DNA of 63,318 nt, the filler included, from Candidatus Desantisbacteria bacterium CG1_02_49_89 (lineage in GTDB: Bacteria; Desantisbacteria; UBA1551): NCBI GenBank assembly GCA_001871075.1. It is 4 parts of 4 records of this genome, joined end to end, with 100 filler letters (N's around TTAATTAATTAA, not from the genome) between each part and the next. Parts side by side here need not be neighbours in the genome. Positions count along the whole stretch, not along the records: positions 29,014 to 45,828 come from MNUP01000135.1; 3 more parts are not named here. One strand, written 5' to 3'. Shown piece after piece: positions 29,202 through 47,446 of this stretch. The position numbers and the translations under genes are program-made. The notes under the pieces were generated by a model. The model was not told the origin of the DNA. It did no database searches and saw only the letters and a program-made list of their open reading frames with translations. The first letter of the stretch is position 1; each line of letters starts with the position of its first letter.

Positions 29202-29230
29202 TTGACAAAAGATGGAATTTACTATATAAT
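29202..29230 (+). promoter_or_regulatory. Consensus sigma70 promoter upstream of tRNA-Ser
   Basis: Perfect TTGACA-N17-TATAAT. Confidence 0.8.
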
Positions 29231-29720: not shown

Positions 29721-29740
29721 CGAATCCCGGCCTCTCCGTA
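29721..29740 (+). repeat. Direct repeat of the tRNA-Ser 3' end (att-like)
   Basis: cgaatcccggcctctccgta is identical to 29432-29451. Confidence 0.9.
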
Positions 29741-29800
29741 GTCCCGATATAAAATCGGGACTAGAGCAATGGAGCAATTGAACAATAGAGCAATAGATAA

Positions 29801-32959
<3,159 letters not shown>

Positions 32960-33060
32960 ATTCTTTATTCCCTATTCTTCTTCCCCCTCTAACGGGGGAA
33001 GATGGAGATGAGGGTATTATGAGGGAGAGGGTGGGGTGAGGGGAAAAACAAGAGGATACA

Positions 33061-35733
33061 GTGCCTGCGAGAAAATTAGAAAAAATATTCAACCCCAAAG
33101 GGATCGCGGTTGTGGGGGCGACCAACAAGAAGGGCCACGTTGGCTATTCCCTGATGAAGAATCTTGTGGGCAGCGGCTACGAGGGGATAGTCTATCCCGT
33201 GAACATTACCAGGGAAAGCGTTTACGGAGTAAAAGCGTATAAATCTCTTTCCGAAGTGCCCGGCGAGGTTGACCTCGCGGTTGTGGCAACCCCGGCTGCC
33301 ACCGTGCCCGGCATTGTTGATGAGTGCGGAAAAAAGGGCGTGAAGGGAGTTGTGATAATTTCCTCCGGGTTCAAGGAGGCAGGAAAAGAAGGCGGGGAGA
33401 TGTGCGCGAAGATCCTGGAGACCGCGAAGCTTTACGGCATGAGGATAATCGGGCCCAACTGCCTCGGCTTCATAAAACCCTCGATAAGCCTTAACGCGAG
33501 CTTTGCCAACAAGATGGCGCTCCCGGGCAGGATCGCCTTTATTTCCCAGAGCGGCGCGCTTGGCACCGCTATCCTGGACTGGTCCGTAAGCCAGAATGTC
33601 GGGTTCAGCCATTTCATTTCCATCGGTTCGATGATAGACGTGGGATTCCACGACCTTATAGATTATTTCGGGCAGGACCCCGGGACTACCAGCATCCTGC
33701 TTTACATGGAATCTCTGACCGACGCGAGGCAGTTCATGAGCGCCACAAGGGCTTTCGCGAGGGCAAAGCCCATAATCATCCTGAAGGCGGGCAAGAGCTC
33801 TGAAGGCGCGCAGGCCGCGAAATCCCACACAGGCAGCATTACCGGGGATGACGCGGTTTTTGATGCGGCATTCAAAAGGGCGGGCGCGATAAGGGTGAAT
33901 ACCATCGGAGAATTATTTGCGTGCGCCCAGACCCTGACCGCGCAGAAAAAGGTGCAGGGAAGAAGGCTTGCCATTGTCACGAACGCCGGCGGCGCGGGGG
34001 TTGTTGCCACGGATTCCCTGATCGAGCTGGGCGGCACGCTCGCGAAACTTTCGGACGGGACGATGGCATCCCTGGACGCGGTCATGCCCGCGAACTGGAG
34101 CAGGGGGAATCCTGTTGACGTGCTCGGGGACGCGGATCCCGAAAGGTACAGAAAGGCGATGGAGGCCTGCATCGCGGACGAGGGAGTTGACGGGATACTT
34201 ACGATCCTCACCCCGCAGGCAATGACAGACGCGGCAGGTGTCGCGAAAGAGATCACGGCGCTTCAGGGCAGGGACAAAAAACCCATACTTACCTCCTGGA
34301 TGGGCGAGGAGGACGTGAACAAGGGCAAGGAGATACTTGAAAAAGGCAATATCCCGGTCTACAAGATCCCTGAGACAGCGGCGCGGTCTTTCATGGATAT
34401 ATACAGGTATTCCAGGAACTTAGAGTTGCTTTATGAAACGCCTGCCACCATACCGCACGCGTTCAGGCCGGAAATCGAAAAGAACAGGGAACTCATAAGC
34501 GGCATTATGAAAGAAGGCAGGTTTGCCCTGACCGAATCCGAGGCAAAGCAGGTCTTTGAAAATTACGGGATACCCACGGTAAAAAGCGGGATCGCGGCAA
34601 CCGCGGCCCAGGCAGGGCAGAAGGCAGCGGAAATAGGGTTCCCGGTAGTGATGAAAATACTTTCCCCGGACGTTCTTCACAAGACGGACGCCGGCGGCGT
34701 GAAGCTCGATATAAAAACAAAAGAAGAAGCGGAAAAGGCTTTCGATGAGATCAACGCTTCCGTGAAAAAATATTTGCCTGCGGCAAAAATAGTAGGCGTG
34801 ATAATCGAGGAAATGGTTTCAAAGAGATACGAGCTGCTCATAGGCTGCAAAAAGGACCCGATCTTCGGGCCTGTCATAGTGTTCGGAATGGGCGGCATAG
34901 CGGTTGAGGTTTTCAAGGACGTGGATACAGGCCTTCCGCCGCTGAACATGGCGCTCGCTATGCGCATGATAGAGGAAACAAAGATCTACACCCTGCTGAA
35001 AGGCTACAGGGGAATGAAGGGCGTTGACATCCCGGCGATCCAGTTCCTGCTTTACAAGTTCGCCTACCTTGTTATAGATTTCCCGCAGATAAAAGAGGTG
35101 GACATCAACCCGTTCGCGGTGGACGAGAACGGCGGGGTGGTCCTGGACGCCAAGATCCTGCTTGACGAGAAGACCGCGGGCAAAGACATAAAACCGTATT
35201 CGCACCTGGTCATCCTGCCCTACCCCAAGGAATACGTAAGGCAGAGCAAGATGAGGAACGGCAGGGAGTTCACGCTTAGGCCCATCAGGCCCGAGGACGA
35301 GCCGATGGAAGCGGAGATGTTCAAGAATTTTTCAGAGGAAACCCTGAGGTTCAGGTTTTTCCAGCTCATCAAGAACATAACCCACGAGTTCCTGATAAGG
35401 TTCACCCAGATAGATTACGACAGGGAGATCGCGATAATCGCCGAAGTCGAGGAAGACGGCGGGAAAAAAATGGCAGGCGTGGTAAGGCTGGTCGCAGACC
35501 CGGACATAGAGACGGCGGAATTCGCGATAGTTGTCGCGGACCCCTGGCAGCGCCAGGGCATAGGCAGCATATTCACGGACTACATACTTGAGATAGCCAA
35601 AGAAAAGGGCCTGAAGGCGATCTACGCGAGCGTCATGAAGTCAAATTACATAATGATCCATATGTTCAGGAAGCGCGGTTTCAGGATGGAAGAGAAAGAC
35701 GATATGTACCACGCTGAGCTCATACTGCAATAA
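33061..35733 (+). CDS. ADP-forming acetate--CoA ligase family / GNAT acetyltransferase fusion (Pat/YfiQ-like)
   Basis: CoA-binding AVVGAT, GPNCLG, SQSGA, SHTG; ATP-grasp HKTDAGGV; C-terminal GNAT IRPED..WQRQGIG. Confidence 0.93.
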   Translation: MPARKLEKIFNPKGIAVVGATNKKGHVGYSLMKNLVGSGYEGIVYPVNITRESVYGVKAYKSLSEVPGEVDLAVVATPAATVPGIVDECGKKGVKGVVIISSGFKEAGKEGGEMCAKILETAKLYGMRIIGPNCLGFIKPSISLNASFANKMALPGRIAFISQSGALGTAILDWSVSQNVGFSHFISIGSMIDVGFHDLIDYFGQDPGTTSILLYMESLTDARQFMSATRAFARAKPIIILKAGKSSEGAQAAKSHTGSITGDDAVFDAAFKRAGAIRVNTIGELFACAQTLTAQKKVQGRRLAIVTNAGGAGVVATDSLIELGGTLAKLSDGTMASLDAVMPANWSRGNPVDVLGDADPERYRKAMEACIADEGVDGILTILTPQAMTDAAGVAKEITALQGRDKKPILTSWMGEEDVNKGKEILEKGNIPVYKIPETAARSFMDIYRYSRNLELLYETPATIPHAFRPEIEKNRELISGIMKEGRFALTESEAKQVFENYGIPTVKSGIAATAAQAGQKAAEIGFPVVMKILSPDVLHKTDAGGVKLDIKTKEEAEKAFDEINASVKKYLPAAKIVGVIIEEMVSKRYELLIGCKKDPIFGPVIVFGMGGIAVEVFKDVDTGLPPLNMALAMRMIEETKIYTLLKGYRGMKGVDIPAIQFLLYKFAYLVIDFPQIKEVDINPFAVDENGGVVLDAKILLDEKTAGKDIKPYSHLVILPYPKEYVRQSKMRNGREFTLRPIRPEDEPMEAEMFKNFSEETLRFRFFQLIKNITHEFLIRFTQIDYDREIAIIAEVEEDGGKKMAGVVRLVADPDIETAEFAIVVADPWQRQGIGSIFTDYILEIAKEKGLKAIYASVMKSNYIMIHMFRKRGFRMEEKDDMYHAELILQ

Positions 35734-35913
35734 ATACAGTGGTCAGTGGTTAGTTAGTGGATAGCGGGTAGCGGTTGCAATGTAGGGGCTCAATTCATTG
35801 AGCCCGGGATCGCGTAGGGGCGACCTTGGTCGCCCGAAGATCATTGCGACCCGCCGTCGAGGCGGGGAAGCAATCTTGTAGCTGCAGGGCTTGCCCTGCA
35901 AATAGGGGCGCAA

Positions 35914-36723
35914 TTGCCAGGAAATAAGGTAAACCTTCTTCTGAAATATTACACCGAAGTGACAAGGTCAAAGCACCTGCATTTCGGTTTCTGGGAGCCG
36001 GGCGAGGAACTGGATATGAAAAACCTGCGCGTCGCGCAGGACAGGTATCTGCGCCACCTGCTCAGTTACATCCCGGCCGGAGTGAAAACCGTGCTTGACG
36101 CGGGCTGCGGCGTGGGGGGCAACGCGGTTGAGCTAAAAAACAGGGGCTATGACGTTGTAAGCCTTTCACCCGATCCCTACCAGGAAAAAGTTTTCAGGGA
36201 AAACACCGGCGGGAAGGTCCAGTTCTGCCTGACCGGATTTGAGGATTTCCGGGCCGAGCGCAGGTTCGACCTGGTCCTGATGTCCGAGAGCTTCCAGTAT
36301 ATGGATCTCACGGCCGGCCTGAAAAAATGCCGCGAGGTCCTGAACGGCAGGGGATGGGTTCTCATATCGGATTTTTTCAAGGTGGACGGCGTTGACGACC
36401 GTGAGGTGCACATATCCGGCCATTCGCTTTCCGGTTTCCTGAAAGAGCTGGAAGCGGAAGGTTTTAAGATCGCCAGGCAGGAGGATGTCACGGACAGGAC
36501 AGGGCCCACGCTTAATTTCATGATATCGCTTTTCAATGATTATGCCATACCCAGCATCAGGATGCTCGCGTACGCCATGGAGACCTACATCCCGTTCGTT
36601 TACAAGATCTCGCGCCGGCTTTTCAGGAGCCCTATAAAGAAGGCGCTTGAAAAAAGCCTGGTGGATGATAAGACTTTCGCGAAATGCCGCAGATATATGT
36701 TCTATTTACTTCAACTGCAATAA
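35914..36723 (+). CDS. Class I SAM-dependent methyltransferase
   Basis: HLHFGFW, VLDAGCGVGG, FDLVLMSES. Confidence 0.88.
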   Translation: MPGNKVNLLLKYYTEVTRSKHLHFGFWEPGEELDMKNLRVAQDRYLRHLLSYIPAGVKTVLDAGCGVGGNAVELKNRGYDVVSLSPDPYQEKVFRENTGGKVQFCLTGFEDFRAERRFDLVLMSESFQYMDLTAGLKKCREVLNGRGWVLISDFFKVDGVDDREVHISGHSLSGFLKELEAEGFKIARQEDVTDRTGPTLNFMISLFNDYAIPSIRMLAYAMETYIPFVYKISRRLFRSPIKKALEKSLVDDKTFAKCRRYMFYLLQLQ

Positions 36724-36938
36724 GACAGTGTCCAGTGGCCCGCCCCTTCGGCGGGTCGCCATGCCTCGTCGGCAGGTCGCCGAAGTGGTGACCGTAGTGG
36801 CGACCAGTATCCAGCAAATAATTTTAAATTTCAAATTGCAAATTTCAAATTGCAAATTGAAGGAGTAGCTGCAGGGCTTGCCCTGCTATTTTGAATAAAA
36901 ATTCTATTTCCTTCATTGTAAATTGATAAGGAGAAAAG

Positions 36939-38129
36939 ATGGACCAATCTAACACAAGTTTTGTTAACCTCGGTATTGCTCCGGGATTTCTGGAAGCTTT
37001 AGGGAGAATGAAGATCACTATTCCTACGCCCATCCAGAACAAGGCGATCCCGGTGGCGATGGAAGGCAAGGATGTTGTGGGCATTGCTCAGTCAGGCACA
37101 GGCAAAACGATCGCGTTCGGCATACCGATGATGCAGCGCCTCGCTCAAAGAAGGGGGAAGGGGCTTGTGCTCGCTCCTACCAGGGAACTTGCGGTCCAGG
37201 TGGGCGAGATGCTGAGGAGCCTGAGCCACGCGCCCGGGATGGAGATCGCTGTCCTTATAGGCGGCGCCCCGATAAACAAACAGCTGAACCAGCTTAACAG
37301 GAACCCGCGCATACTCGTGGCCACGCCGGGAAGGCTGATGGACCATGTTGAGAGAAGAAGGAACCTGCTGAGCGACGTGAACGTGGTGGTGCTTGACGAG
37401 GCTGACCGCATGCTTGATATGGGTTTCAAGCCGCAGATAGACCGTATCCTGCAGCAGGTGCCCAGGGACAGGCAGACCATGCTTTTTTCCGCGACGATGC
37501 CTTCCGAGATAGCCGGTATCGCGAGGACTTACATGAAACTTCCTGTCAGCGTTGAGGTCGCGCCTGCGGGAACCGCGGCGGAAACAGTCGTCCAGGAGCT
37601 TTTTATCGTAATGCACGACAGCAAGGCGCAGCTTCTGCGCAGGCTTCTCGAGCAATACAAGGGGTCGGTCCTGCTGTTTACGCGCACTAAGGCCGGCGCG
37701 AGGAAGGTGAAGATAAGAGTGCAGTCTATGGGGCACAACTCCGCTGAGATACACTCAAACCGTTCTCTTTCCCAGCGCAGGGAAGCCCTTGAAGGCTTTA
37801 AATCAGGCAAATACAGGGTGCTGGTCGCCACCGATGTCGCGGCCCGGGGTATTGACGTTAAGGGTATTGAGCTGGTCATAAATTATGACCTTCCCGACGA
37901 GGCGGAAAGTTACGTGCACCGCATCGGGCGGACAGGGCGCGCCGGCAAGCCCGGGCACGCCATATCTTTCGCGATGCCGGACCAGCTGCAGGGAGTGCGC
38001 AGCATCGAAAGGCTGATAAGGACTACTTTACCCGTTTCCAAGCACCCCGATATGCCAGTTACGCAGTTTTCAACGCACTACGTCAGGTATACTCCGCGCA
38101 GGCGGCACGGCACGCACAGGTACCGTTAA
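36939..38129 (+). CDS. DEAD-box RNA helicase
   Basis: PTPIQ, SGTGKT, PTRELA, DEAD, SAT, ARGID, HRIGRTGR. Confidence 0.96.
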   Translation: MDQSNTSFVNLGIAPGFLEALGRMKITIPTPIQNKAIPVAMEGKDVVGIAQSGTGKTIAFGIPMMQRLAQRRGKGLVLAPTRELAVQVGEMLRSLSHAPGMEIAVLIGGAPINKQLNQLNRNPRILVATPGRLMDHVERRRNLLSDVNVVVLDEADRMLDMGFKPQIDRILQQVPRDRQTMLFSATMPSEIAGIARTYMKLPVSVEVAPAGTAAETVVQELFIVMHDSKAQLLRRLLEQYKGSVLLFTRTKAGARKVKIRVQSMGHNSAEIHSNRSLSQRREALEGFKSGKYRVLVATDVAARGIDVKGIELVINYDLPDEAESYVHRIGRTGRAGKPGHAISFAMPDQLQGVRSIERLIRTTLPVSKHPDMPVTQFSTHYVRYTPRRRHGTHRYR

Positions 38130-38132
38130 AAA

Positions 38133-38253
38133 CAGGGACAAGGAACCAGATACCAGGGACAAGATGCAAGGGACAAGATGCAAGTGAAGGATTTTTATTT
38201 AAATAAGATTCTATTTCCATCCCTAGCACCTTGCCACTTGTCACTTGTCCCTG
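38133..38253. repeat. Inverted pair of 7-mer arrays (CAAGGGA-like / TCACTTG-like)
   Basis: About 8 forward units, an AT-rich spacer, then about 5 reverse-complement units. Confidence 0.72.
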
Positions 38254-38333
38254 AAGTAAATACAAGAACAGACACCATCGATGCGTCCTAGGCAAGAACT
38301 AAAGCCGGGCTTAACGGCCCTGCGGGAGGCAGA

Positions 38334-39083
38334 ATGGAAAAGAAATGGAAGAGACCAGACATATCCATCCCCGTTAAATACAGGATCATAAGCGGGGGAA
38401 CGGGCGGGAGTAACGGAACCGGGGCGGCAGTTATGCCGGATGGCGCTATTTTAAACGCAGAGGAAGACCTGCTGAAAATGCTTATCGAGAAGGGAGCGCG
38501 CGCCGGGGACAGGATCGAAGTTGAAATGGAGATCTTCGAGCTGCTGAAAGACAACCGTTTTACGGCGGATATCATACAATTGCAGGAAGACAAGCCGGGT
38601 TTTGAGACAGCTGTTTTAAAGATAAGGGAAATGCTGGGGAAAAACCGCAGGATGTTCCTGGAGCGTATTTCCGAGATGCAGACCGAAACGGAGTTGAGGG
38701 GTGAAAAGAAGGAAAAAAGGATCTGGGCGAGAGTGGAGACATTTCTAAACGTTAAATATGATATTATCGCCCACGAGGGAGACGCGATAGACGTTGATTC
38801 CGTTGAGCCGCGCGCGGAGCTTCCTTATTACGGCAGGATACTGGACATAAGCGAGGGCGGGCTTAAATTTTTTAAGGACACGAACAGCGTTGTCCGGATC
38901 GGGGATGTCCTGGAAATCCTTTCTGATATACCGAATATCTCTGAGGACCAGCGCTTCTTTATAAAAACCGTGGCAGACAGGGGCGAGGCGAAAAGGGGCG
39001 GTCTGTTCGGATGTGTCTTTTTGAAAGTCAAAAAAACCCTGCGAGACCGTATAATCGATTACATCGCCAGGAAAAGTGGGTAG
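38334..39083 (+). CDS. PilZ domain-containing protein
   Basis: RxxxR (KRIWARV) and DxSxxG (DISEGG) c-di-GMP motifs; RDRIIDYI end. Confidence 0.7.
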   Translation: MEKKWKRPDISIPVKYRIISGGTGGSNGTGAAVMPDGAILNAEEDLLKMLIEKGARAGDRIEVEMEIFELLKDNRFTADIIQLQEDKPGFETAVLKIREMLGKNRRMFLERISEMQTETELRGEKKEKRIWARVETFLNVKYDIIAHEGDAIDVDSVEPRAELPYYGRILDISEGGLKFFKDTNSVVRIGDVLEILSDIPNISEDQRFFIKTVADRGEAKRGGLFGCVFLKVKKTLRDRIIDYIARKSG

Positions 39084-39380
39084 TTTGTAGCTGCAGGGCT
39101 TGCCCTGCTAATGCAGTCGTAGGGCAAGGTTTTTGTAGCTGCAGGGCTTGCCCTGCTATGTAGCGGTCCCGATTTACCTGTCCGCCAGTTAGTTTGGAGG
39201 ATCGGGACAATCTTGTCATTATCTATGTAGTTTGTAGCTGCAGGGCTTGCCCTGCTATTTTGAATAAAAATTCTATTTCCTTCATTGTAAATTGTTAATT
39301 GTAAATTTTAAATTGATAAGCGAAGCAATTTTGTAGCTGCAGGGCTTGCCCTGCTATGTAGTTATTATCCGGGAGCGTAT

Positions 39381-40457
39381 ATGCTTTCAATGGGGATAGT
39401 GGGCCTGCCCAACGTGGGCAAGTCCACTCTTTTTAATTCTCTGATAAAAAAGAGAAAAGCGCCGGCCATGAATTACCCGTTCTGCACCATAAAGCCGAAC
39501 GTGGGCGTGGTGGAGGTTTTTGACGAAAGGTTTTTTAAGCTGGCGGAGATGTCGCGCGCGCGCAGCGTTGTGCCCGCGGCAATAGAGTTCGTGGACATAG
39601 CCGGTCTGGCAAAGAACGCCTCGAAGGGAGAAGGTCTGGGGAACCAGTTCCTTGCCGACATCCGGGAAGTGGACGCCATACTTGAAGTGGTTCGTTTTTT
39701 CGAAGACGGCGAGATCATGCACGTGGAAGGCGAGCTGGACTGCGAACGCGACCGTGAGGTAGTGGACCTGGAGCTCGCGCTTGCTGACCTTGAAGTGGTG
39801 AGCAAGCGCCTGGATAAAGCTTACAGGGCGGCGCGCGCAGGGGACAAGGACGAAAAGAAGATATTCGATATATTAGGCAGGGTGAAAATATCGCTTGAAA
39901 AAGGGGACCTTGCCTCTGAGGCTGGGCTTAATGACGACGAAAAATTCGCGGTCAAGAGCCTGAGCCTGCTGACGCTCAAGCCCATCCTGTGCGTGGCGAA
40001 CGTCAGTGAAGAGCAGTTCAGGACCGGTTCCTGGAAGAAAATGACTGACCATCCCGAAAGATACCTTCCCATATGCGCGAAGATCGAAGAAGAGCTTATT
40101 GACCTGGACAGGGATGACTCAAAAAAATACCTTGAATCTATTAACGCGGGCGATTCCGGCCTTGACAGGCTCATCAAAGAAAGCTACAGGACTCTTGACC
40201 TAATCGCCTTTTTTACGGTAGGCGAGGAAGAGACCAAGGCCTGGAAAATAAGGAACGGCACCAAAGCGTCGGAAGCCGCGGGCGAAATACATTCTGATTT
40301 TGAAAGAGGGTTCATAAGGGCGGAGGTCATAAACTGGAAAGTCCTTCTGGAGGCAGGTTCAGAACTGGCTGCGGTTGAAAGGGGATTGATCAAGGGAGAG
40401 GGCAGGGACTATATCGTGCGCGACGGGGACTGCATAACCTTCAAGTTCAACGTATAG
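39381..40457 (+). CDS. ychF: Redox-regulated ATPase YchF
   Basis: GIVGLPNVGKSTLFN, NYPFCTI, DIAGL..GEGLGNQFL, IHSDFERGFIRAE. Confidence 0.97.
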   Translation: MLSMGIVGLPNVGKSTLFNSLIKKRKAPAMNYPFCTIKPNVGVVEVFDERFFKLAEMSRARSVVPAAIEFVDIAGLAKNASKGEGLGNQFLADIREVDAILEVVRFFEDGEIMHVEGELDCERDREVVDLELALADLEVVSKRLDKAYRAARAGDKDEKKIFDILGRVKISLEKGDLASEAGLNDDEKFAVKSLSLLTLKPILCVANVSEEQFRTGSWKKMTDHPERYLPICAKIEEELIDLDRDDSKKYLESINAGDSGLDRLIKESYRTLDLIAFFTVGEEETKAWKIRNGTKASEAAGEIHSDFERGFIRAEVINWKVLLEAGSELAAVERGLIKGEGRDYIVRDGDCITFKFNV

Positions 40458-40695
40458 CCAAAGATAAAGCCGTATTTTCGTTTTGGTGTCATTGCGACAC
40501 AAGCTTTTAGACAATGAAAATGACAATTACGAGCTCAATTGATTGACGGTTTCTGGTGTCATTGCGGGCGCAGCGTGGCAATCAAAAAAAGCAACGGCAG
40601 GGTTTATCCTGCCGGGTTCCCCCTTTGTAAAAGGGGGATTGAGGGGGATTTTGCAGGGCAGACCTTTTCGAAGACCCGCCAGTTTTTAAGGAGGG

Positions 40696-40859
40696 AGGTC
40701 TGCGTAGCTCAAACCTTCAGGTTTGAGAGTGAATATTCAAGGTCTGACCCCCAAGCTTGCACAAATAGGTTTTTATTTATCTTTCGTAGGGCAGACCTTC
40801 AGGTCTGCGTAGCTCAAACCTTCAGGTTTGAGAGTGAATATTCAAGTTCTGACCCCCAA
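40696..40859 (+). repeat. REP cluster: two ~59-bp direct copies containing GTAGCTCAAACCTTCAGGTTTGA and ..TCTGACCCC
   Basis: 40696-40754 vs 40801-40859. The same REP occurs at ~11599 and ~49923. Confidence 0.82.
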
Positions 40860-40887
40860 ACTTTTATAGTAAAAAAGGAGATCCCCG

Positions 40888-41232
40888 GTGTCCATTTTAA
40901 AGGAGTTCAAAGAATTTGCGGTTAAAGGCAATGCCATTGATATGTCCGTAGGTATAGTGATCGGTGCGGCTTTTGGTAAGATCGTCAGTTCTTTGGTAAA
41001 TGATGTTATTATGCCGCCTATCGGTATCTTGATCGGCGGGGTTGATTTCAAGGACCTGAAACTGATACTTAAGGGCGCCACGGCAGATGCGCCGGCAGTG
41101 ACCCTCAATTACGGGCAATTCATTAATTCGGTGCTTGATTTCCTGATCGTCGCCATCGCGATCTTTATGGTGATAAAAGGCATCAACACATTGAAAAAGA
41201 AAACCGAACAAACCAGGACTGAACCTAAATAA
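40888..41232 (+). CDS. mscL: Large-conductance mechanosensitive channel
   Basis: [40 protein letters not shown]. Confidence 0.96.
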
Positions 41233-41484
41233 ACCGTTCGATCGCGCGGTGGTATTGTCAAGGAGCCGCAGGATTATCCCTGGTCAAGCGCACTGAGCCA
41301 TATCAAAAGAAATGGCAATCTTTTACTGTCAGGCGACCTTCCTCTTGTGGGTGAAATAAAGGACTGGAAAACATATCTTTCAAGCCAGGAAGATGAGGAG
41401 GCCCTGAAAGAACTAAGGCAATGCACTCTTACGGGAAGGCCCGCAGGAAAGGATGATTTCGTTATCAAGATGGAGTGCCTGCTG
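41233..41484 (+). pseudogene. C-terminal remnant of a RAYT/Y1-type transposase, interrupted by a MITE
   Basis: One frame reads GIVKEPQDYPWSSALSH..DWKTYL..LRQCTLTGRPAGKDDFVIKMECLL; no start codon. Confidence 0.72.
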
Positions 41485-41600
41485 TGTAAATTGTAATCAA
41501 AAATTGACCCACCTTGTAATGACAATTGACCCGTCTTTTATATTGTAGGAGTGGGTCAAACCAGATTACAATATGGGTCAAAGATGCATTACTATTGACA
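41485..41600. mobile_element. 116-bp IS21-like MITE, left copy
   Basis: TG..CA ends; imperfect TIR with two GTAAT-N-TTGACCC repeats per end. Confidence 0.88.
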
Positions 41601-41687
41601 TTATTTAGTCAATTAGATGAGTTGCATAATATATTAAAAGAAAAATTATTACCAGAAATAATTGATTATGGGTTTATTAGTGAATAA
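41601..41687 (+). pseudogene. Probable 3' fragment of a gene truncated by the left MITE
   Basis: Open frame LFSQLDELHNILKEKLLPEIIDYGFISE* begins exactly at the MITE end. Confidence 0.45.
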
Positions 41688-41756
41688 AAGATGAAGTAAT
41701 GAAATAGAAATTTATAAGTAAGTTATTCGTATTTTGATAAGTAGGGAGTAAATAAC

Positions 41757-42482
41757 ATGACTAAAAGTGGACAGCTTGTTTGCTCATATCTTGAAAATAT
41801 CCCAAGAGAAGGTTTAGAAAAATATCAGAAAATAATTCGGGAATATGCAAAAGGAAGACACGGAATATATGCCTTGTATAAAAGCGGAAAATTGTATTAC
41901 GTAGGATTAGCTTCAAATTTACGCTCCAGGCTTCATCATCATTTACAGGACAGACACGCTCAAAGCTGGGATAGGTTTAGTATCTATTTAACAATTAATG
42001 ATAGACAACTTAAGGATTTGGAGACTTTGGTTCTTAGGATCGCCAGTCCTAAAGGGAATTTACAAGAAGGAAAATTTATCCAATCTGAAGATTTGAAGAG
42101 GAAATTCAGAAGGCAATTTACTGAATTTCAAAGACATGAACGGGACATTTTCTTTCAAGATAACCATCCAACGTTTGAACCAGATCAACAGCCAGAACCC
42201 ATTAAGGGTCGTAAAGCAACCCTTGCAGATTATATAAAAAGACGTATACATATTCGATTTGAATACAAAGGGCATCTTTACATTGCCCATGTGCGAAGGG
42301 ATGGAACTATAACATTTGCAGCTGAAGGTCACAGGGCAAAGGAATTACAGGGGAAAGTTTATACTTCGCCTTCACTGGCTGCTACGGCAATAACTAATCA
42401 TAAAATGAATGGTTGGAAAGCTTGGAAATATGAACGTTCTCCTGGTGAATGGGTATTATTAGATGAGCTAAGGAAACAGTAA
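41757..42482 (+). CDS. GIY-YIG nuclease fused to a RAMA-like domain
   Basis: HGIYALY..LYYVGLASNLRSRLHHH and later E/N residues; C-terminal GKVYTSPSLAATAI..NGWKAWKY. Confidence 0.82.
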   Translation: MTKSGQLVCSYLENIPREGLEKYQKIIREYAKGRHGIYALYKSGKLYYVGLASNLRSRLHHHLQDRHAQSWDRFSIYLTINDRQLKDLETLVLRIASPKGNLQEGKFIQSEDLKRKFRRQFTEFQRHERDIFFQDNHPTFEPDQQPEPIKGRKATLADYIKRRIHIRFEYKGHLYIAHVRRDGTITFAAEGHRAKELQGKVYTSPSLAATAITNHKMNGWKAWKYERSPGEWVLLDELRKQ

Positions 42483-42970
42483 TGAAAACAGACATCGGTG
42501 AATATATAGTAGGCGCTTATTTAAAAGTAATAGAGGGTTGCAGTTTTATTGATTATAATGTAAGACCTCCTGGCGGAGGGTTGGAAGGATTAAATGAAAT
42601 TGATGTTCTGGGTTTTGATTTGGAAAAGAGAGCTATTTATTTGTGTGAAGTAACAACGCACATTCTTGGACTTAATTATGGAAGTCATACGGAAACAATT
42701 CAAAAAATAAATGATAAATATTTGAGGTTAAAGGAGTATGCAAAAAAGAATTTAAAAGTATTTACAAAATTTAATTATATGTTTTGGTCTCCCGTTGTAA
42801 GTAAAGGGTATCTTACAAATGAACTCGAAAAAATTCAAGGCTTGAAAGTTATTATTAATGAAAAATATACTGAAAAGATAGATATGTTGAGAAAAAAAGC
42901 AAAAAGATTTACACAGGATTTTGGAAATCCTTTTTTTAGAGTTCTCCAAATTTTAGAAAAGTTAAAATAG
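42482..42970 (+). CDS. PD-(D/E)XK restriction-endonuclease-fold protein
   Basis: GEYIVGAYL, EIDVLG, IYLCEVTTH; TAATG overlap with the upstream gene. Confidence 0.7.
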   Translation: MKTDIGEYIVGAYLKVIEGCSFIDYNVRPPGGGLEGLNEIDVLGFDLEKRAIYLCEVTTHILGLNYGSHTETIQKINDKYLRLKEYAKKNLKVFTKFNYMFWSPVVSKGYLTNELEKIQGLKVIINEKYTEKIDMLRKKAKRFTQDFGNPFFRVLQILEKLK

Positions 42971-43043
42971 ATCAGCTTGACTTTGAGCCACCATAAATAA
43001 TAAGTGTTTTAAAAACTGATAGGACAGATCACAAAGAGAGAAA

Positions 43044-43598
43044 ATGGACGTTAATAGTAGTTATAAATTAATATATTCTAAGATTTCTAAAGAATGGTTT
43101 AATTTATCGTTTACGTTAAATGAGCCATCTTTTTATAGATTTTTTTGTTTATGGAATTCGTTTAATGCGTTATATATTTTAATAGGCGATCTTTATACAA
43201 GAGATTCTGAAAGACAAAAAATACTAATTGGACAATTGAATAAAGACGATGCTAACAAGATTATTGAATCCGCAAAGAATCTTATAAGAGATCCGATTAG
43301 AGATTTAAAGGGAGAATTATTCAAATTAAATCAACCTCCAGACGTTGAAAATTTTGATTATACAAAGCTAACATATGAAAGGGATTATACAAACTTAGAA
43401 AAGTTAGAACATATTGTAACTATTTTATATCGTATAAGAAATAATTTAACGCATGGTTCAAAAAAAATAACCGGCATGAATATAGAAATAGTAAATAAAG
43501 CAAATTTAGTTTTAAAAATAATCGTTGAAAAATGTATAGAAGAAAAATTACCCAAATTAGATAATGAAAATTCAAATAACTATAATGGAGATAAATAA
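43044..43598 (+). CDS. HEPN-domain putative RNase (Apea/MauJ-like)
   Basis: FFCLWNSFNALY helix and RNNLTHG (Rx4H) motif. Confidence 0.78.
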   Translation: MDVNSSYKLIYSKISKEWFNLSFTLNEPSFYRFFCLWNSFNALYILIGDLYTRDSERQKILIGQLNKDDANKIIESAKNLIRDPIRDLKGELFKLNQPPDVENFDYTKLTYERDYTNLEKLEHIVTILYRIRNNLTHGSKKITGMNIEIVNKANLVLKIIVEKCIEEKLPKLDNENSNNYNGDK

Positions 43599-44384
43599 AT
43601 GTGCAGATTGTTTGGAATTATGGCTAATAGAGAAGTAGATATCGATTTTTCATTTTACAAAGCTGACAAACCATTTAAATCGTTTTCAAGAAGTAATCCA
43701 GATGGATGGGGAATAGGTTATTACAAAAATGGCAAGGCAGAAGTTTTTAAGGAAGGATTGGACGATGTTGAAAAATATGACTTTAACAAAATAGAGTATA
43801 TAAAATCAAATATAGTTATTTCACACGTAAGAAAAGCCGCTCAGTATGGTGGCAATTCAAGTAAAAATGCGCATCCTTTTAAATATAAAAATTGGATATT
43901 TGCCCATAACGGTGTTGTAAAAAGAGAAAGAATATTAGAATGTTTGGATGAAGAATACAAACAGGAATTAACCAGCGAAAACGATACCGAAATATATTTT
44001 CGTTTACTTTTACAAGAAATTAATAGGAGTTCTAATGTAATTAATGGAATAAAAACTGGTATTAAAATAGTAAAGGAGCAGGTTGATTATACTGGTCTGA
44101 ATTTTGTCATGTCTGACGGAGAAACTTTATATGCTTACAGAGATGCTTCAGAAAACAAAAATTATTATTCCTTATATTTTCTTGAACGAAAACCCCAAAA
44201 AGGAAAAGAATTTAATTTTAAATCTAAGGCAACCAATCAATTAATGCACAGTAAATGTTTATTGGGCGAAAAAGCAGTTTTGTTTTGTTCGGAAAAAATG
44301 ACTGAAGAAGAATGGCAAGAAATTGAATTAGGAAAATTATTTATTGTAGATCCTAAGTTAGAAATAACAAAGATTAAATTATAA
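43599..44384 (+). CDS. Class II glutamine amidotransferase / Ntn-hydrolase (YafJ/EgtC-like)
   Basis: MCRLFG (Cys2 nucleophile), NPDGWG, SHVRKA, NAHPF, FAHNG, NDTE. Confidence 0.9.
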   Translation: MCRLFGIMANREVDIDFSFYKADKPFKSFSRSNPDGWGIGYYKNGKAEVFKEGLDDVEKYDFNKIEYIKSNIVISHVRKAAQYGGNSSKNAHPFKYKNWIFAHNGVVKRERILECLDEEYKQELTSENDTEIYFRLLLQEINRSSNVINGIKTGIKIVKEQVDYTGLNFVMSDGETLYAYRDASENKNYYSLYFLERKPQKGKEFNFKSKATNQLMHSKCLLGEKAVLFCSEKMTEEEWQEIELGKLFIVDPKLEITKIKL

Positions 44385-44659
44385 ATTAAGGAAGATTGCC
44401 GATTACCCGAGTATATTTTGCAGCATTTTCAAGTTCTGCGTGTATAATAAGATAATACCATTCATTTTCTGCTTGATTAATAGGAAGAAATGTGGTATAA
44501 TGATATAAGAGGTTAGGGGTTGGGAATAGGGAAGGCTAAAGTAGCTTACAAGTTAAAAGCGGTTCTTTGAAAATTGGGGATTGAAGAGGCATGCCTGCCC
44601 GGAAGAAAGGTTCTTTAAAGGAAAAGGTAATAAAGACGATGGTGTTAGAAGGAGGGTGC

Positions 44660-44866
44660 ATGGAACAGAACAACCCGGCAGGGCAGCAGAATTTGAACAA
44701 GAAATGGCTTAAGGAGTTTTTCCAGATTCCTCTTGATTGGCTTTCATTTTTACTGGTAGCAACCGTGTCAATTATCCACGCAATAAAAACATCATATTAT
44801 CTTACAAACACAGAAGAGGGAAAGGCGGAAATAGAAAGGCAGGCAAAAGAAAGGTTGGATAGGTAA
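44660..44866 (+). CDS. Small membrane-associated hypothetical protein
   Basis: GGAGGG RBS before the ATG at 44660; one hydrophobic helix; upstream TGTGGTATAAT. Confidence 0.45.
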   Translation: MEQNNPAGQQNLNKKWLKEFFQIPLDWLSFLLVATVSIIHAIKTSYYLTNTEEGKAEIERQAKERLDR

Positions 44867-45128
44867 AGAAACTGGTAGAGGTGGCGTGCCTCAGTTTGAC
44901 TTTAAACCACTATACGTAAAAATATAGATGGAAATTAGAAGCCGGTGCTATCACAGGGCCGGTTTTCTATTTTGTCTCTCCTTATAATCGAATACACTTG
45001 ACTTTTTCAAGTTTTAATATATAATAGACTTGCATAATTAGATGCTATATTCAATATATAAATAATGAACTCAAGTTAGATTACAACACAGACCCAGACT
45101 GCGTTATAGTTGACAAGGAGTATTAAAA

Positions 45129-45286
45129 ATGAAAAAACTAATCTTGATCTCATTGTTAGTATTATTAGCGGCAACTGCCTATGCACAAGATACAAAGACT
45201 ACTGCTGCGGTTATGGATTTAACTGCTGAGCAGGGAGTTTCCGCAGGTACAGCAAAGGCACTTTCAGACTATTTGCGAGTCCAGCT
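45129..45286 (+). pseudogene. Exported protein (CsgG/LpoB-like N-terminus) truncated by the right MITE
   Basis: Signal peptide MKKLIL..AYA and AAVMDLTAEQGVS..ALSDYLRVQL, after which the frame runs into MITE sequence. Confidence 0.65.
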
Positions 45287-45402
45287 TGTAAATTGTAATC
45301 AAAAATTGACCCACCTTGTAATGACAATTGACCCGTCTTTTATATTGTAGGAGTGGGTCAAACCAGATTACAATATGGGTCAAAGATGCATTATTATTGA
45401 CA
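45287..45402. mobile_element. 116-bp IS21-like MITE, right copy (direct orientation)
   Basis: Differs from 41485-41600 at only one position that I could see. Confidence 0.88.
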
Positions 45403-45577
45403 GCCAGATCAAGGGGAAGGCCAGAGAAAATAAAATAAATGGTCGCTGTCCCTATTAAAATTAAAGTTTTCTTCCCTTAATTTCATATCAAATAATCTTG
45501 ACATTGAACGAAAATATGCTATAATATAGTCTCCTAAATATCTATATCATTAAATATATATTCGCGGGAAGGAAACG

Positions 45578-45760
45578 ATGCCGGTTTTGAAGACAAAGCT
45601 GAATAATGAGGAAAAAGAACTGGATTTTGAGCTGAAGTACCAACTGTCGCTGACAACAGAGCAGAGGTTCAGGATGATGTTTAAAAAATCAAGGGAAATG
45701 CAGGAGATGCTGCAGAAAAATGGACACCGAAAACCTTTTGAGGTCATTAAAAGAAAATAA
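45578..45760 (+). CDS. Small protein, probable partner of the downstream nucleotidyltransferase
   Basis: ELDFELKYQLSLTTEQRFRMM; promoter TTGACA-N16-TATAAT at 45498-45525; overlaps the next gene. Confidence 0.6.
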   Translation: MPVLKTKLNNEEKELDFELKYQLSLTTEQRFRMMFKKSREMQEMLQKNGHRKPFEVIKRK

Positions 45761-45828
45761 GGTAAAATTCGTTATCATAGGCGCCACTGCTTTTCCTGTG
45801 CACGGTTACAGCAGGGCAACCCTTGACA
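45720..45828 (+). CDS. Nucleotidyltransferase-family protein, N-terminal part (cut by the gap; not in the ORF track)
   Basis: MDTENLLRSLKENKVKFVIIGATAFPVHGYSRATLD (IG..A...HG..RATxD motif). Confidence 0.72.
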
Positions 45829-45928
45829 NNNNNNNNNNNNNNNNNNNNNNNNNNNNNNNNNNNNNNNNNNNNTTAATTAATTAANNNNNNNNNNNNNNNN
45901 NNNNNNNNNNNNNNNNNNNNNNNNNNNN
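45829..45928. other. Artificial assembly linker/gap
   Basis: N44-TTAATTAATTAA-N44. Confidence 0.97.
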
Positions 45929-47446
45929 CCAATCTGCCTCGTGCAGGCTGAAAGAACTGGAAAAGAACAAAGAGGAACCAGATTTATTCATTCAGAGGAT
46001 GTGAAGGAATATTTGATCAAACAATGCGGTATTTTAGAAGAACAGATAGCGATAAAAAGCAGCGAAAAGGATGACATTGAAGGCATTGATTTATTGAGCA
46101 AAGATTGCCAGATTCGATATATAATTACTAAACAAGCCTTGCAGGAAGGATGGGATTGTGCTTTTGCTTATATCCTTACGGTATTGACTAATCCGGGTTC
46201 TCAACTAAGTATTACTCAACTGGTTGGTAGAATTCTAAGGCAGCCAAAGGCAAAAAAAACAAAGGTAAAAGAGCTTGACGAAAGCTATGTTTTTTGTTTC
46301 AGGCAAAAAGCTAAAAATCTCCTTGAGAATGTAAAAGTAAGCTTTGAAGATGAGGGACTCGGAGACATAGCCGGGAGAATTACCATAGACGAGAGCGATG
46401 AACAGACGCTGAAAACAACAAAGGAAAGAACCGTTGGTTATAGGGAAGAATTTAAAAGATTTGAAGGAAAGATATATCTTCCTAAATTCGTTATTCAGGA
46501 GAATTCAAGCTGGCGCGATATCAATTATGAAATGGATATTTTAAGCAGGATAGACTGGGACGATATTGACATAAAGCCTTTAAGCGATATAACGCTTTCT
46601 AAAATACGGCAAGAAGAGCAAGAGGTAATAGTTGGTTTAAGTGATGATGAGAAGGAGGTCATAAAAGAGAAAAATAGGATTTCTAAAGCCGGGGGCTTGG
46701 AGATTGACAAGGTTTTTATAACCAGGCAGATTCTGGATATCGTTCCAAACCCCTGGGTTGCTTATGATATTGGCGTAAAAACTCTGGATATATTTCTAAA
46801 AAAAAGTGATAAGAAAATGGTTTCAACGAATCTTGCTTTTATCATTGAAGAACTAAGAAAAATTCTGGAAAAAGAAAAAGATAAATTAGCGGAACAAATA
46901 TTCAAGAAACTATTAGAAAACAAAACGTTGTGTTTCTTTTTAATTTCTGATAAGGGCGGCTATAAATTACCTGATACCATAAGGGTTAAAAATAATATAA
47001 AAGGACTTGTAAGAGATGACAATAGTCCCATACAGTTAAGCCTTTTTGATTTTGTCCCAGAAGAAGAATTAAATGAAACAGAAAAAACAGTTGCTCTTTA
47101 TCTTGATGAACAAGAGAAGCTTTTGTGGTGGTATAGAAATTTGTCACGGCAGGATTATTATGTGCAAGGGTGGAAGAAATACAAAATATATCCAGATTTT
47201 GTTTTTACGGATAAACGCCAAAAAACAAAGAGTGATTACAGTAAGATATTTGTGATAGAGACAAAAGGATTACATTTAAAAAACGAAGATACTGAGTATA
47301 AGAAGAATATTTTTAATTTTTGTAATAGCTTAGGACAGCAAAAAGATTGGAGAGATCTCAATCTTGAATTCAGCGATAAAAAAATTGAATTTCAGATTGT
47401 TTTTGAAGATGAATGGAGAAAACGAATAAACAAAATCTTTGAATAA
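45929..47446 (+). CDS. Type III restriction enzyme Res-like subunit, C-terminal part
   Basis: ALQEGWDC and QLVGRILRQP helicase motifs; YPDFVF..VIETKG nuclease motif; AT-rich; frame is open from the gap. Confidence 0.85.
   Translation, partial: PICLVQAERTGKEQRGTRFIHSEDVKEYLIKQCGILEEQIAIKSSEKDDIEGIDLLSKDCQIRYIITKQALQEGWDCAFAYILTVLTNPGSQLSITQLVGRILRQPKAKKTKVKELDESYVFCFRQKAKNLLENVKVSFEDEGLGDIAGRITIDESDEQTLKTTKERTVGYREEFKRFEGKIYLPKFVIQENSSWRDINYEMDILSRIDWDDIDIKPLSDITLSKIRQEEQEVIVGLSDDEKEVIKEKNRISKAGGLEIDKVFITRQILDIVPNPWVAYDIGVKTLDIFLKKSDKKMVSTNLAFIIEELRKILEKEKDKLAEQIFKKLLENKTLCFFLISDKGGYKLPDTIRVKNNIKGLVRDDNSPIQLSLFDFVPEEELNETEKTVALYLDEQEKLLWWYRNLSRQDYYVQGWKKYKIYPDFVFTDKRQKTKSDYSKIFVIETKGLHLKNEDTEYKKNIFNFCNSLGQQKDWRDLNLEFSDKKIEFQIVFEDEWRKRINKIFE

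What the first reader, a model, noticed from the sequence alone, without database searches (positions are those of the whole stretch)
41485..45402. Transposase-free composite transposon: two 116-bp IS21-like MITEs captured a 3.7-kb foreign segment
Seen: direct-orientation MITE copies differ at about one base and have TG..CA ends with doubled GTAAT..TTGACCC motifs. The cargo is sharply AT-rich and is cut mid-gene at both ends (41601-41687; 45129-45286). I see no target-site duplication. Known: multiple terminal repeats and TG..CA ends characterise IS21-family elements. Inference: recent MITE-mediated capture and delivery of a nuclease cassette, mobilised in trans.
Basis: partly seen in the sequence, partly recalled or inferred. 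Interest (0 to 1): 0.8.

Follow-up and report, generated by a model that had tools for sequence, protein, structure and literature searches.

The report
MITE-bounded gene cassette in groundwater bacterium
Two nearly identical 116-base transposon-end remnants bracket a 3.7-kb AT-rich block of nuclease-like genes inside a dead transposase gene of an uncultivated groundwater bacterium, a known kind of structure that probably arrived in one piece but shows no proof of transposition.

Summary
The repeat pair is real. Two direct 116-nt copies (41485-41600, 45287-45402) differ at 1 of 116 bases. Both have TGT..ACA ends, and each end holds two GTAAT-N5/6-TTGACCC sub-repeats. That matches the published two-repeat design of IS21 ends.

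Three independent metagenome assemblies carry the same two-copy arrangement, so an assembly artefact is unlikely.

- The window is four contigs joined by N44-TTAATTAATTAA-N44 linkers. The right copy lies 426 nt from a contig end, and the AT-rich DNA after 45929 is on another contig.
- The 3,918-nt unit splits the 3' end of a RAYT/IS200-like pseudogene, in frame.
- The right cargo end is a truncated CsgG/LpoB-type lipoprotein gene. Its closest named relatives are Desantisbacteria, so that part is not clearly foreign.
- A promoter module in the cargo has an 84% paralogue just downstream in a strain variant.

Against proven transposition:
- No target duplication appears in any pairing of flanks.
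- No istA/istB partner was found in any collection.
- Only one genomic context is known for the unit.
- About five codons of the target appear to be missing.

The structure resembles the known MITE-bounded composites (TIME-COMPs, IMUs). I rate one-piece arrival through the MITEs at about 0.55. "Recent", "foreign" and "mobilised in trans" remain unproven.

The parts
41236..41484 (+). Left half of the target: C-terminal fragment (83 codons) of a RAYT/IS200-like Y1 transposase pseudogene, starting right after mscL
   Evidence: The translation has 625 relatives at E<=0.001. The full-length relative P0008 matches PF01797 Y1_Tnp (48.6 bits) and NF047646 RAYT (78 bits against a cut-off of 80).
41485..41600 (+). 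MITE copy 1 (116 nt): TGT..ACA ends, two GTAAT-N5/6-TTGACCC sub-repeats at each end, C at position 108
41601..41756 (+). Left cargo end and leader of the GIY-YIG gene. The claimed gene fragment 41601-41687 is only 28 open codons and is not verified.
   Evidence: The only family hit is a weak, implausible one (DASH_Ask1, E 0.043).
41757..42482 (+). GIY-YIG + RAMA/DUF4357 protein, 241 aa (candidate defence family PDC-S14)
   Evidence: Pfam: RAMA 36 bits, GIY-YIG 23.8 bits. PADLOC: PDC-S14 at E 4e-12. 2857 relatives at E<=1e-5, the next best 67% identical.
42482..42970 (+). 162-aa protein of unknown family; its start overlaps the previous stop. The restriction-endonuclease-like reading (Mrr_cat/NERD) is a lead only.
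   Evidence: No Pfam, PADLOC, NCBIfam, PHROG or PDB hit. In the ESM Atlas the nearest clusters that carry a family score 0.83-0.86.
43044..43598 (+). 184-aa HEPN-like protein with an Rx4H motif (RNNLTH)
   Evidence: The motif is read from the translation. HEPN_Apea is a weak hit at E 0.056. No PDB hit.
43599..44384 (+). Class-II (Ntn) glutamine amidotransferase-like protein, 261 aa, abutting the HEPN-like gene
   Evidence: PF13230 GATase_4 at E 1.4e-31. phrog_13070 at E 3.6e-18.
44591..44866 (+). 91-aa ORF, no family
44882..45060 (+). Terminator-like hairpin plus promoter-like module. An 84% paralogue lies upstream of a small GIY-YIG gene just downstream in strain variant L004.
   Evidence: blastn gives 84.2% over 183 nt, aligned. 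The hairpin and -35/-10 boxes are my reading of the sequence.
45129..45286 (+). N-terminal 52 codons of a CsgG/LpoB-type lipoprotein gene, cut by MITE copy 2
   Evidence: 15 longer relatives of 124-687 aa, 14 of 15 with PF03783. Two are named Candidatus Desantisbacteria, at 72% and 79% identity.
45287..45402 (+). MITE copy 2 (116 nt), T at position 108
45403..45438 (+). Probable right half of the target: the last 11 codons plus stop (ARSRGRPEKIK*) of the same RAYT-like pseudogene, in frame with 41236-41484
   Evidence: Translation. The unit is 3918 nt, or 1306 codons. The peptide ranks 7th of 3105 against an HMM of 103 family tails. Relatives end ...GRPRKKK*.
45829..45928 (.). Artificial contig linker (N44-TTAATTAATTAA-N44). 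Sequence to its right belongs to another contig.

Best explanation
A 3,918-nt unit sits in the chromosome of a groundwater Desantisbacteria population. It consists of two directly oriented copies of a 116-nt non-autonomous element flanking 3,686 nt of AT-rich cargo. It lies inside the 3' end of a dead RAYT/IS200-like gene, at the edge of an AT-rich variable island between mscL and a tRNA-Ser gene.

The 116-nt element is a stripped-down DDE transposon: two ~48-nt ends and a 20-nt middle. Each end finishes in CA and holds two tandem transposase-binding-type sub-repeats, which is the IS21 TIR design.

The unit most likely entered the pseudogene in one piece through the element copies. One route is transposition from the two outermost ends, as in a composite transposon. 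The other is fusion of a circle carrying one copy with the chromosome, by cointegrate formation or by homologous recombination with a resident copy. The two routes cannot be told apart here.

The cargo holds two small operons: GIY-YIG/RAMA with a 162-aa protein, and a HEPN-like protein with a class-II amidotransferase-like protein. They look like defence or nuclease genes. The cargo also holds a lipoprotein gene that the right copy cut off.

Shown: the structure, the end architecture, the split pseudogene (moderately supported) and the truncated lipoprotein gene. Inferred: one-piece arrival, the family of the missing transposase, and any present-day mobility.
For: - Repeat pair and end design.
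- A third, diverged copy (136 nt, L001 3155-3290) at an unrelated locus begins and ends at exactly the same TGT and ACA. So these are true element ends, and the family has occupied at least two sites.
- IS21 TIRs are described as ~55 bp, made of two direct repeats (L1/L2, R1/R2), each with two conserved blocks, ending in CA. IstA needs both repeats (PMC10122671, passages).
- The same two-copy arrangement at 99.9-100% identity occurs in 3 further metagenome assemblies (L002, L005, L006). L005 lies on a 41.9-kb contig. A fourth assembly, L004, covers the right half.
- All 24 groundwater/aquifer runs listed hold 0.76-0.99 of the sampled words of the stretch.
- The left flank is a bona fide RAYT-like C-terminal fragment.
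- The 11 codons after the right copy are in frame. They read ARSRGRPEKIK* where relatives read ..GRPRKKK*, and they rank 7th of 3105 window peptides against the family-tail HMM.
- That 36-nt tail is about 47% G+C by my own count. This resembles the left flank and not the cargo.
- The right copy truncates a lipoprotein gene whose remainder is not behind it. So the right copy is not a simple insertion at its present site.
Against: - No TSD: 0 of 5 flank pairings has a perfect match of 3-10 nt. The best are 5 of 8 (outer flanks) and 5 of 7. IS21-type and other DDE elements make 4-8-bp duplications.
- About five codons of the RAYT tail (family-tail HMM positions 18-22) are missing at or near the junction.
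- The tail match is weak on its own (5.8 bits, E 1.4). Arginine-rich off-frame peptides score similarly.
- No autonomous partner was found: 0 hits in viral contigs, in plasmids and in 185,579 species genomes. The JGI metagenomes gave only miniature copies, 7 loci at 2 sites.
- None of the 20 window ORFs or fragments scanned with Pfam is a transposase. Ten came, and 10 of the 45 ORFs of >=150 aa (list).
- The unit has only one known context. No empty site or solo-copy allele was found.
- Logan contigs break inside the repeat, so they do not verify linkage.
- Part of the cargo looks native, not imported.
Confidence: 0.55

Rival explanations
1. Two independent events in a pre-existing AT-rich island. 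The element copies inserted, or were brought by local rearrangement or microhomology deletion, at two places in island DNA that was already there. The unit never moved as a whole, and the RAYT-like tail after the right copy is a chance look-alike.
For: - No TSD around the unit.
- AT-rich island DNA continues to the right of the unit (GC 0.376). It holds a DUF6036 nucleotidyltransferase pair, a small GIY-YIG gene and tRNA-Ser.
- The cargo shares an 84% module with that neighbouring DNA.
- The cargo lipoprotein fragment is of host-phylum type.
- The tail score is only 5.8 bits.
- At the csgG'-MITE junction the relatives' sequence (LRVQLVNT) continues two residues into the element. Up to 7 nt (TGTAAAT) could belong to either side, as in a microhomology join.
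Against: - The tail is in frame, ends with a stop at the family's usual distance, and ranks 7th of 3105.
- Neither copy has a TSD of its own.
- The near-identity of the copies, together with a target gene split exactly at the unit's outer ends, is what one-piece arrival predicts.
Confidence: 0.28
2. Assembly artefact. In the cells there is a solo copy in the RAYT pseudogene plus a separate 3.8-kb circle carrying one copy, and assemblers joined them through the 116-nt repeat.
For: - The repeat is close to read length.
- The right copy lies 426 nt from a contig end.
- k=31 contigs cannot resolve the two topologies.
- The only difference between the copies is 9 nt from the right end, so it is linked only to the right flanks.
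Against: - Three other assemblies from different metagenome records give the same joins. One contig is 41.9 kb and runs through both copies.
- The cargo has no replication or integration gene.
- No joint of the alternative form appeared in 4 of the 24 runs laid, though contigs are a weak test.
Confidence: 0.07
3. The 116-nt repeat is not a transposon remnant. It would be another protein-binding module, such as an iteron-like origin/operator or a recombination site, duplicated on integration of an element.
For: - Four phased 19-20-nt sites with ~23-nt spacing could bind any dimeric or tetrameric DNA-binding protein.
- There is no TSD.
- Direct repeats flanking an insert are what site-specific integration leaves.
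Against: - The TGT..ACA termini are shared exactly by a diverged solo copy at an unrelated site.
- The symmetric 2+2 inverted design equals the IS21 TIR layout.
- The cargo has no integrase or Rep.
- There is no Rfam match in the MITEs; the only match in 40400-45828 is a sub-threshold Flavo-1 hit at 42907-42986 inside the cargo (22.3 bits against a gathering score of 42).
Confidence: 0.05

Closest known systems
[quoted passage not shown]
   Same: Two copies of one miniature element bound a few kb of cargo with no transposase inside. Directly oriented pairs exist (MITESen1). For those, the authors propose integration of a MITE-bearing circle by homologous recombination into a resident copy, which is the same alternative I raise here. 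They also set aside structures without flanking direct repeats as lacking direct evidence of transposition.
   Different: - Those MITEs derive from Tn3-family ends with one 38-nt-type IR per end, leave 5-6-bp direct repeats, sit on Enterobacteriaceae plasmids and carry resistance genes.
- Here the ends have the IS21-type two-repeat design and there is no direct repeat.
- The host is an uncultivated groundwater bacterium.
- The cargo is a nuclease/defence-like cassette.
IS21-family insertion sequences (IS21, IS5376): istA/istB, with TIRs built of L1/L2 and R1/R2 repeats (PMC10122671, passages)
   Same: Terminal CA. TIRs of about 50 nt, each made of two direct repeats with two conserved blocks. 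Left and right ends are alike enough that either could serve.
   Different: - No istA/istB was found anywhere with these ends.
- There is no 4-8-bp TSD.
- There is no sequence similarity to any IS end in 72,556 plasmids.
- Other transposons with AAA+ helpers (Mu, Tn7, Tn402/Tn5053, Tn552) also have TG..CA ends with several binding sites. As I recall, they are less symmetric; this was not tested.
Ordinary bacterial MITEs such as MITEAba12 (PMC6382973, passages)
   Same: About 113 nt, TIR-bounded, non-autonomous. Only 40% of its 90 copies keep a TSD, so a missing TSD is common in this class.
   Different: MITEAba12 has a known partner (ISAba12), 9-bp TSDs in fresh insertions and dozens of copies. 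Here only 3 copies at 2 sites are known, and there is no partner.

Membership tests
IS21-family-derived MITE | Ends terminate in 5'-TG...CA-3' | tested here: met
   All three known copies start TGT and end ACA.
IS21-family-derived MITE | Each TIR consists of two or more direct repeats (L1/L2, R1/R2), each with two conserved blocks | tested here: met
   There are two GTAAT-N5/6-TTGACCC units per end. Four N5 matches were found against 0.26 expected. Layout; definition from PMC10122671.
IS21-family-derived MITE | Target-site duplication of 4-8 bp | tested here: not met
   0 of 5 flank pairings has a perfect 3-10-nt match. The L001 copy shows only CC/CC.
IS21-family-derived MITE | An autonomous istA/istB element with matching ends | tested here: not met
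   The pattern scans gave 0 hits in viral contigs, 0 in species genomes and only miniature copies in JGI metagenomes. blastn against plasmids gave no match. The host's full genome is not held, so absence from the host itself is untested.
Composite transposon / TIME-COMP-like unit | Two copies of the same element with intact outer ends bound the cargo | tested here: met
Composite transposon / TIME-COMP-like unit | Direct repeats of the target flank the whole unit | tested here: not met
   The outer flanks GCCTGCTG / GCCAGATC match at 5 of 8, with nothing perfect. About 5 target codons seem to be missing instead.
Composite transposon / TIME-COMP-like unit | One target sequence is interrupted by the unit (or an empty site is known) | tested here: inconclusive
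   The RAYT-like fragment on the left and an in-frame family-like tail on the right fit this. The tail scores only 5.8 bits, and no empty-site allele was found.
Composite transposon / TIME-COMP-like unit | The same unit at more than one location, or transposition shown with a transposase in trans | tested here: not met
   All 4 metagenome loci with the cargo show the same context. The cargo has no match in plasmids, phages or viral contigs. The transposition assay cannot be done with these tools.
RAYT / IS200-like Y1 transposase (the interrupted target) | Y1_Tnp catalytic domain | tested here: not met
   Only the C-terminal extension is present, with no Pfam hit on the 83 aa. The full-length relative P0008 has PF01797. 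It is a 5'-truncated pseudogene.

The most novel reading that the evidence does not exclude
The 116-nt elements belong to a small, undescribed family of IS21-type miniature elements in candidate-phylum groundwater bacteria. They would move or fuse DNA without leaving a target duplication, for example by joining at short homologies to their own TGTAAAT terminus or next to CCWGC-like sites. Left flanks of all three known copies carry CCTGC or CCAGC within 1-3 nt of the end. In this way they would shuttle defence-type cassettes into tRNA-linked islands.
Probability: 0.1. Interest if true: 0.55.

Novelty: new member of a known kind. Interest (0 to 1): 0.3.

Why it matters
If the unit moved as one piece, MITE-bounded composites are not confined to Tn3-derived elements carrying resistance genes on clinical plasmids. 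They would also shuffle defence-like cassettes in uncultivated candidate phyla, using ends of the IS21 design. As it stands, the locus is a well-documented example of a known kind of structure with incomplete proof of mobility. It also shows that this window is a concatenation of contigs.

Tried and rejected
- **Whole-genome search:** no genome is held for this window. Metagenome loci cannot be used as handles.
- **Search for a partner element or further copies:**
  - viral contigs, 0;
  - plasmids by blastn, no match;
  - species genomes, 0;
  - JGI metagenomes, 7 loci that reduce to 2 sites.
- **Synteny or empty site in relatives:** YchF found 44 loci, but the best is only 51% identical. No close relative was found in the species-genome set through the YchF patterns.
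- **First homologue search with the RAYT fragment ('longer'):** nothing. The full-library HMMER search then worked.
- **Other RAYT-like copies:** none in the held DNA that would allow a DNA-level comparison of the tail. There is no intact paralogue of the lipoprotein gene in the held DNA either.
- **Reads:** only Logan k=31 contigs were available.
  - They stop 30 nt into the repeat or at the single variant base. None bridges a whole copy, and no joints were reported (4 of 24 runs laid).
  - Uncovered stretches were seen in X24 (40900-41229, depth 0, with 41230-41330 only thinly covered) and X16 (about 45064-45363). These may reflect strain differences or low coverage and are not used as evidence.
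  - Depths (for example 41.2 for the repeat core against 21.8 and 28.6 beside it in X5) are not copy numbers by the tool's own caution.
- **Cargo elsewhere:** no match in plasmids or phages. No viral-contig relative of the amidotransferase-like protein.
- **Rfam on 40400-45828:** only a sub-threshold Flavo-1 hit at 42907-42986, at 22.3 bits against 42.
- **An 8-bp TSD with 3 mismatches (GCCTGCTG/GCCAGATC):** rejected. Removing it would put the GRP..K tail out of frame. Three changes in 8 nt also do not fit with 1 change in 116 nt of the copies.
- **Tn6645 as a precedent for MITE-bounded composites:** rejected. It is bounded by ISAba3, not by MITEs.
- **IS21-derived MITEs in print:** one search ('IS21 family' + 'miniature inverted-repeat') found 1 paper, seen as a listing only and not read. 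This is no proof of absence.
- **Supplementary files:** not consulted. The TIR sequence tables of PMC10122671 might allow a closer comparison of the sub-repeats.

Full report
**1. The observation**

The repeat pair is in the sequence as described.
- The repeat finder reports two direct copies of 116 nt at 41485-41600 and 45287-45402, 3802 nt start to start, 99% identical.
- A script finds a single difference, at position 108: C at 41592 and T at 45394. The flanks on both sides are unrelated.
- Each copy starts TGT and ends ACA. Its first 48 nt match the reverse complement of its last 48 nt at 34 of 48 positions.
- Each end holds two direct sub-repeats, (T)TGTAAT-N5/6-TTGACCC, about 23 nt apart.
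- The N5 form occurs 4 times in the 63-kb window, only inside the two copies, against 0.26 expected. None of 100 shuffles reached 4.
- The cargo has 31.9% G+C, against 52.2% for the rest of its contig (profile).

**2.

The window is not one molecule. Three linkers of the form N44-TTAATTAATTAA-N44 lie at 17146-17245, 28914-29013 and 45829-45928, so four contigs were concatenated.
- The feature lies on the contig 29014-45828.
- The right copy ends 426 nt before that contig's end.
- The AT-rich 45941-47446 ORF, a 501-aa ORF with no Pfam hit, belongs to another contig.
- No whole genome is held.
- Earlier notes of this scan call the organism an uncultivated groundwater Desantisbacteria. My own search is consistent with that: the closest named relatives of a cargo gene fragment are from Candidatus Desantisbacteria.

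**3. Is the arrangement real?**

A scan of JGI metagenome contigs with the double-site pattern gave 7 loci.
- L002, L005 and L006 come from three different metagenome records. They carry both copies with the same 3802-nt spacing at 99.9-100% identity to the window. L005 lies on a 41.9-kb contig.
- L004 starts inside the cargo and runs through the right copy.
- Twenty-four groundwater/aquifer runs hold 0.76-0.99 of the sampled words of 40900-45828.
- I laid 4 of the 24. They are kept as k=31 contigs, which stop 30 nt into the repeat or at the variant base. They neither confirm nor contradict the joins, and no alternative joints were reported.

Concordant independent assemblies make a chimeric join unlikely, but read-level proof is still missing.

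**4. The element**

L001, L003 and L007 are one further locus, 99.9-100% identical to each other. They hold a diverged 136-nt relative at L001 3155-3290.
- Aligned with the two window copies, it begins and ends at exactly the same TGT and ACA. It keeps the outer-left site and both right sites.
- This fixes the true ends and shows that the family has occupied at least two unrelated sites.
- L007 also carries a ~130-nt repeat that is 98% identical to repeats at two contig ends of this window. So that locus probably belongs to the same or a very close organism.

Passages of PMC10122671 describe IS21 TIRs as follows:
- they are about 55 bp long;
- they are built of two direct repeats (L1/L2, R1/R2), each with two conserved blocks;
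- they end in CA;
- IstA needs both repeats and can use either end.

The element here has that symmetric 2+2 layout. As I recall, Mu, Tn7 and Tn402-type ends also have several binding sites and TG..CA termini but are less symmetric. IS21 is therefore the best guess for the family, not a demonstrated membership.

No autonomous partner was found. None of the 20 window ORFs or fragments scanned with Pfam is a transposase (one search covered 10 of the 45 ORFs of >=150 aa listed).

**5. The target**

The 83 codons left of copy 1 (41236-41484) start right after mscL.
- They have 625 relatives at E<=0.001 in 1.84 billion representatives.
- Full-length relatives of about 220-235 aa are IS200-like Y1 / REP-associated tyrosine transposases. 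P0008 scores 48.6 bits on PF01797 and 78 bits on NF047646 against a cut-off of 80.
- The window fragment corresponds to their residues ~126-205, so the gene is a 5'-truncated pseudogene.
- Relatives end ...LE..LGR.LRP.K.GRPRKKK*.
- The window reads ...MECLL, then the 3,918-nt unit (exactly 1306 codons), then ARSRGRPEKIK*.
- Against an HMM built from 103 family tails, this peptide ranks 7th of 3105 stop-to-stop peptides of the window. The score is low, however (5.8 bits), and arginine-rich off-frame peptides score alike.
- About five codons (HMM positions 18-22) are absent.

I take the split pseudogene as moderately supported.

**6. No target duplication**

I compared the last and first 2-10 nt of every sensible pairing of flanks: outer/outer, each copy's own flanks, inner/inner, and the L001 copy.
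- None has a perfect match of 3 nt or more.
- The best are 5 of 8 for the outer flanks and 5 of 7 for the flanks of copy 2.
- An 8-bp duplication with three changes is implausible beside 1 change in 116 nt of the copies. It would also put the RAYT tail out of frame.
- For comparison, only 40% of 90 MITEAba12 copies keep a TSD (PMC6382973, abstract passage).
- The authors of the TIME-COMP survey excluded MITE-bounded structures without flanking repeats as lacking direct evidence of transposition (PMC13367494, passages).

**7. The cargo**

| Coordinates | Product | Evidence |
|---|---|---|
| 41757-42482 | GIY-YIG + RAMA/DUF4357 protein |. PADLOC candidate system PDC-S14, E 4e-12. Large, patchily distributed family: 2857 relatives at E<=1e-5, next best 67% identical, named members from Aminicenantes, Desulfobacterales, WOR-3 and an archaeon |
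| 42482-42970 | 162-aa protein, no family | Overlaps the previous gene by one base. Restriction-endonuclease-like leads only |
| 43044-43598 | HEPN-like protein with RNNLTH | |
| 43599-44384 | Class-II amidotransferase-like protein | GATase_4, E 1.4e-31 |
| 44591-44866 | 91-aa ORF | No family found |

The 'nuclease cassette' label is reasonable for two of the genes and open for the rest.

The right end is a truly truncated gene. The 52 codons at 45129-45286 match the N-termini of CsgG/LpoB-type lipoproteins of 124-687 aa. Fourteen of 15 hits carry PF03783, and two named hits are from Candidatus Desantisbacteria.

The claimed fragment at the left end (41601-41687) is 28 open codons without a credible family and cannot be verified.

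The stretch 44882-45060 is a terminator-like hairpin plus a promoter-like module. It has an 84% paralogue just downstream of the locus in strain variant L004, in front of a small GIY-YIG gene.

So at least the right third of the cargo looks like DNA of this lineage's own variable islands, not like a distant import.

**8. Surroundings**

To the right of copy 2 come, in order:
- the RAYT tail;
- a 60-aa gene and a DUF6036 nucleotidyltransferase gene;
- in L004 only, the paralogous module;
- a small GIY-YIG gene;
- tRNA-Ser(tga).

L004 and L006 diverge from each other after the nucleotidyltransferase gene. The unit therefore sits at the edge of an AT-rich, strain-variable, tRNA-linked island.

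**9. Mechanism**

Two facts argue that the unit arrived as one piece through the element copies. The target gene is split exactly at the unit's outer ends. The right copy cuts a gene whose remainder is absent.

Two routes give the same product. One is transposition from the outermost ends. The other is fusion of a circle carrying one copy with the chromosome.
- The circle fusion could occur by cointegrate formation. As I recall from the older literature, which I did not check here, this is how IS21 fuses replicons, leaving direct copies at both junctions.
- It could also occur by homologous recombination with a resident copy. This has been proposed for directly oriented MITESen1-bounded units (PMC13367494).

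The lack of a TSD and the missing codons fit neither route cleanly. They leave room for the rival in which the copies and the cargo came together by local rearrangements.

One junction detail points that way. Relatives of the lipoprotein continue ...LRVQLVNT..., and the read-through into copy 2 also gives ...LRVQLVN. Up to 7 nt (TGTAAAT) may therefore be shared by the gene and the element terminus. This is inferred at protein level only.

'Recent' is not established. Gene conversion between direct repeats can keep them alike.

**10. Verdict**

This is a real, well-replicated, MITE-bounded unit of a known kind (TIME-COMP / IMU-like). Its ends have the IS21 design, it carries a defence-like cassette, and it sits in a candidate-phylum bacterium. 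One-piece arrival is likely (about 0.55), with composite transposition and circle fusion roughly equally probable within that. Present or past transposition is unproven. Interest is modest.

Noticed in passing
window 17146-17245, 28914-29013, 45829-45928: The window is four contigs joined by N44-TTAATTAATTAA-N44 six-frame-stop linkers. Any feature or composition trend that crosses these points is artificial.
   Followed up: yes
window 41473-41484, 45277-45286; L001 3143-3154: The left flanks of all three element copies carry CCTGC or CCAGC within 1-3 nt of the TGT end. The two window copies share 9 of 12 positions there, with 2 gaps (GAGTGCCTGCTG against GAGTCCAGCT). This may be a target preference or chance.
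   Followed up: partly
window 45280-45293: Relatives of the truncated lipoprotein continue LRVQLVNT, and the read-through into the element gives LRVQLVN. Up to 7 nt (TGTAAAT) at the junction could belong to either the gene or the element, as in a microhomology join.
   Followed up: partly
window 44882-45060 and L004 2462-2643: A 183-nt terminator-plus-promoter module occurs twice at 84% identity. One copy drives the truncated lipoprotein gene in the cargo. The other drives a small GIY-YIG gene next to tRNA-Ser in one strain variant only. Logan contigs show further contexts branching at 45060-45064.
   Followed up: partly
L004 2168-2428 (-), L006 381-629 (-): A free-standing 82-86-aa GIY-YIG gene next to tRNA-Ser is only 86.6% identical between two otherwise 99.8%-identical strain variants.
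   Followed up: no
window 16907-17144 and 17246-17442; L007 8766-8895: A ~130-nt repeat with ~166-nt period sits at the ends of two window contigs, and at 98% identity at the end of metagenome contig L007. It probably broke the assemblies.
   Followed up: no
L001 3704-4453 and L004 2783-3223: Both known sites of the element family lie a few hundred nt upstream of nucleotidyltransferase-like genes that are weakly alike: pairwise E 0.008, with DUF6036 detected in one of them.
   Followed up: partly
window 42700-43370, 43870-44034, 44200-44364: Several cargo stretches have extra Logan contigs with loose ends leading into other sequence. Near-identical pieces of the 162-aa, HEPN-like and amidotransferase-like genes therefore sit in other contexts in the same aquifer community.
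   Followed up: no
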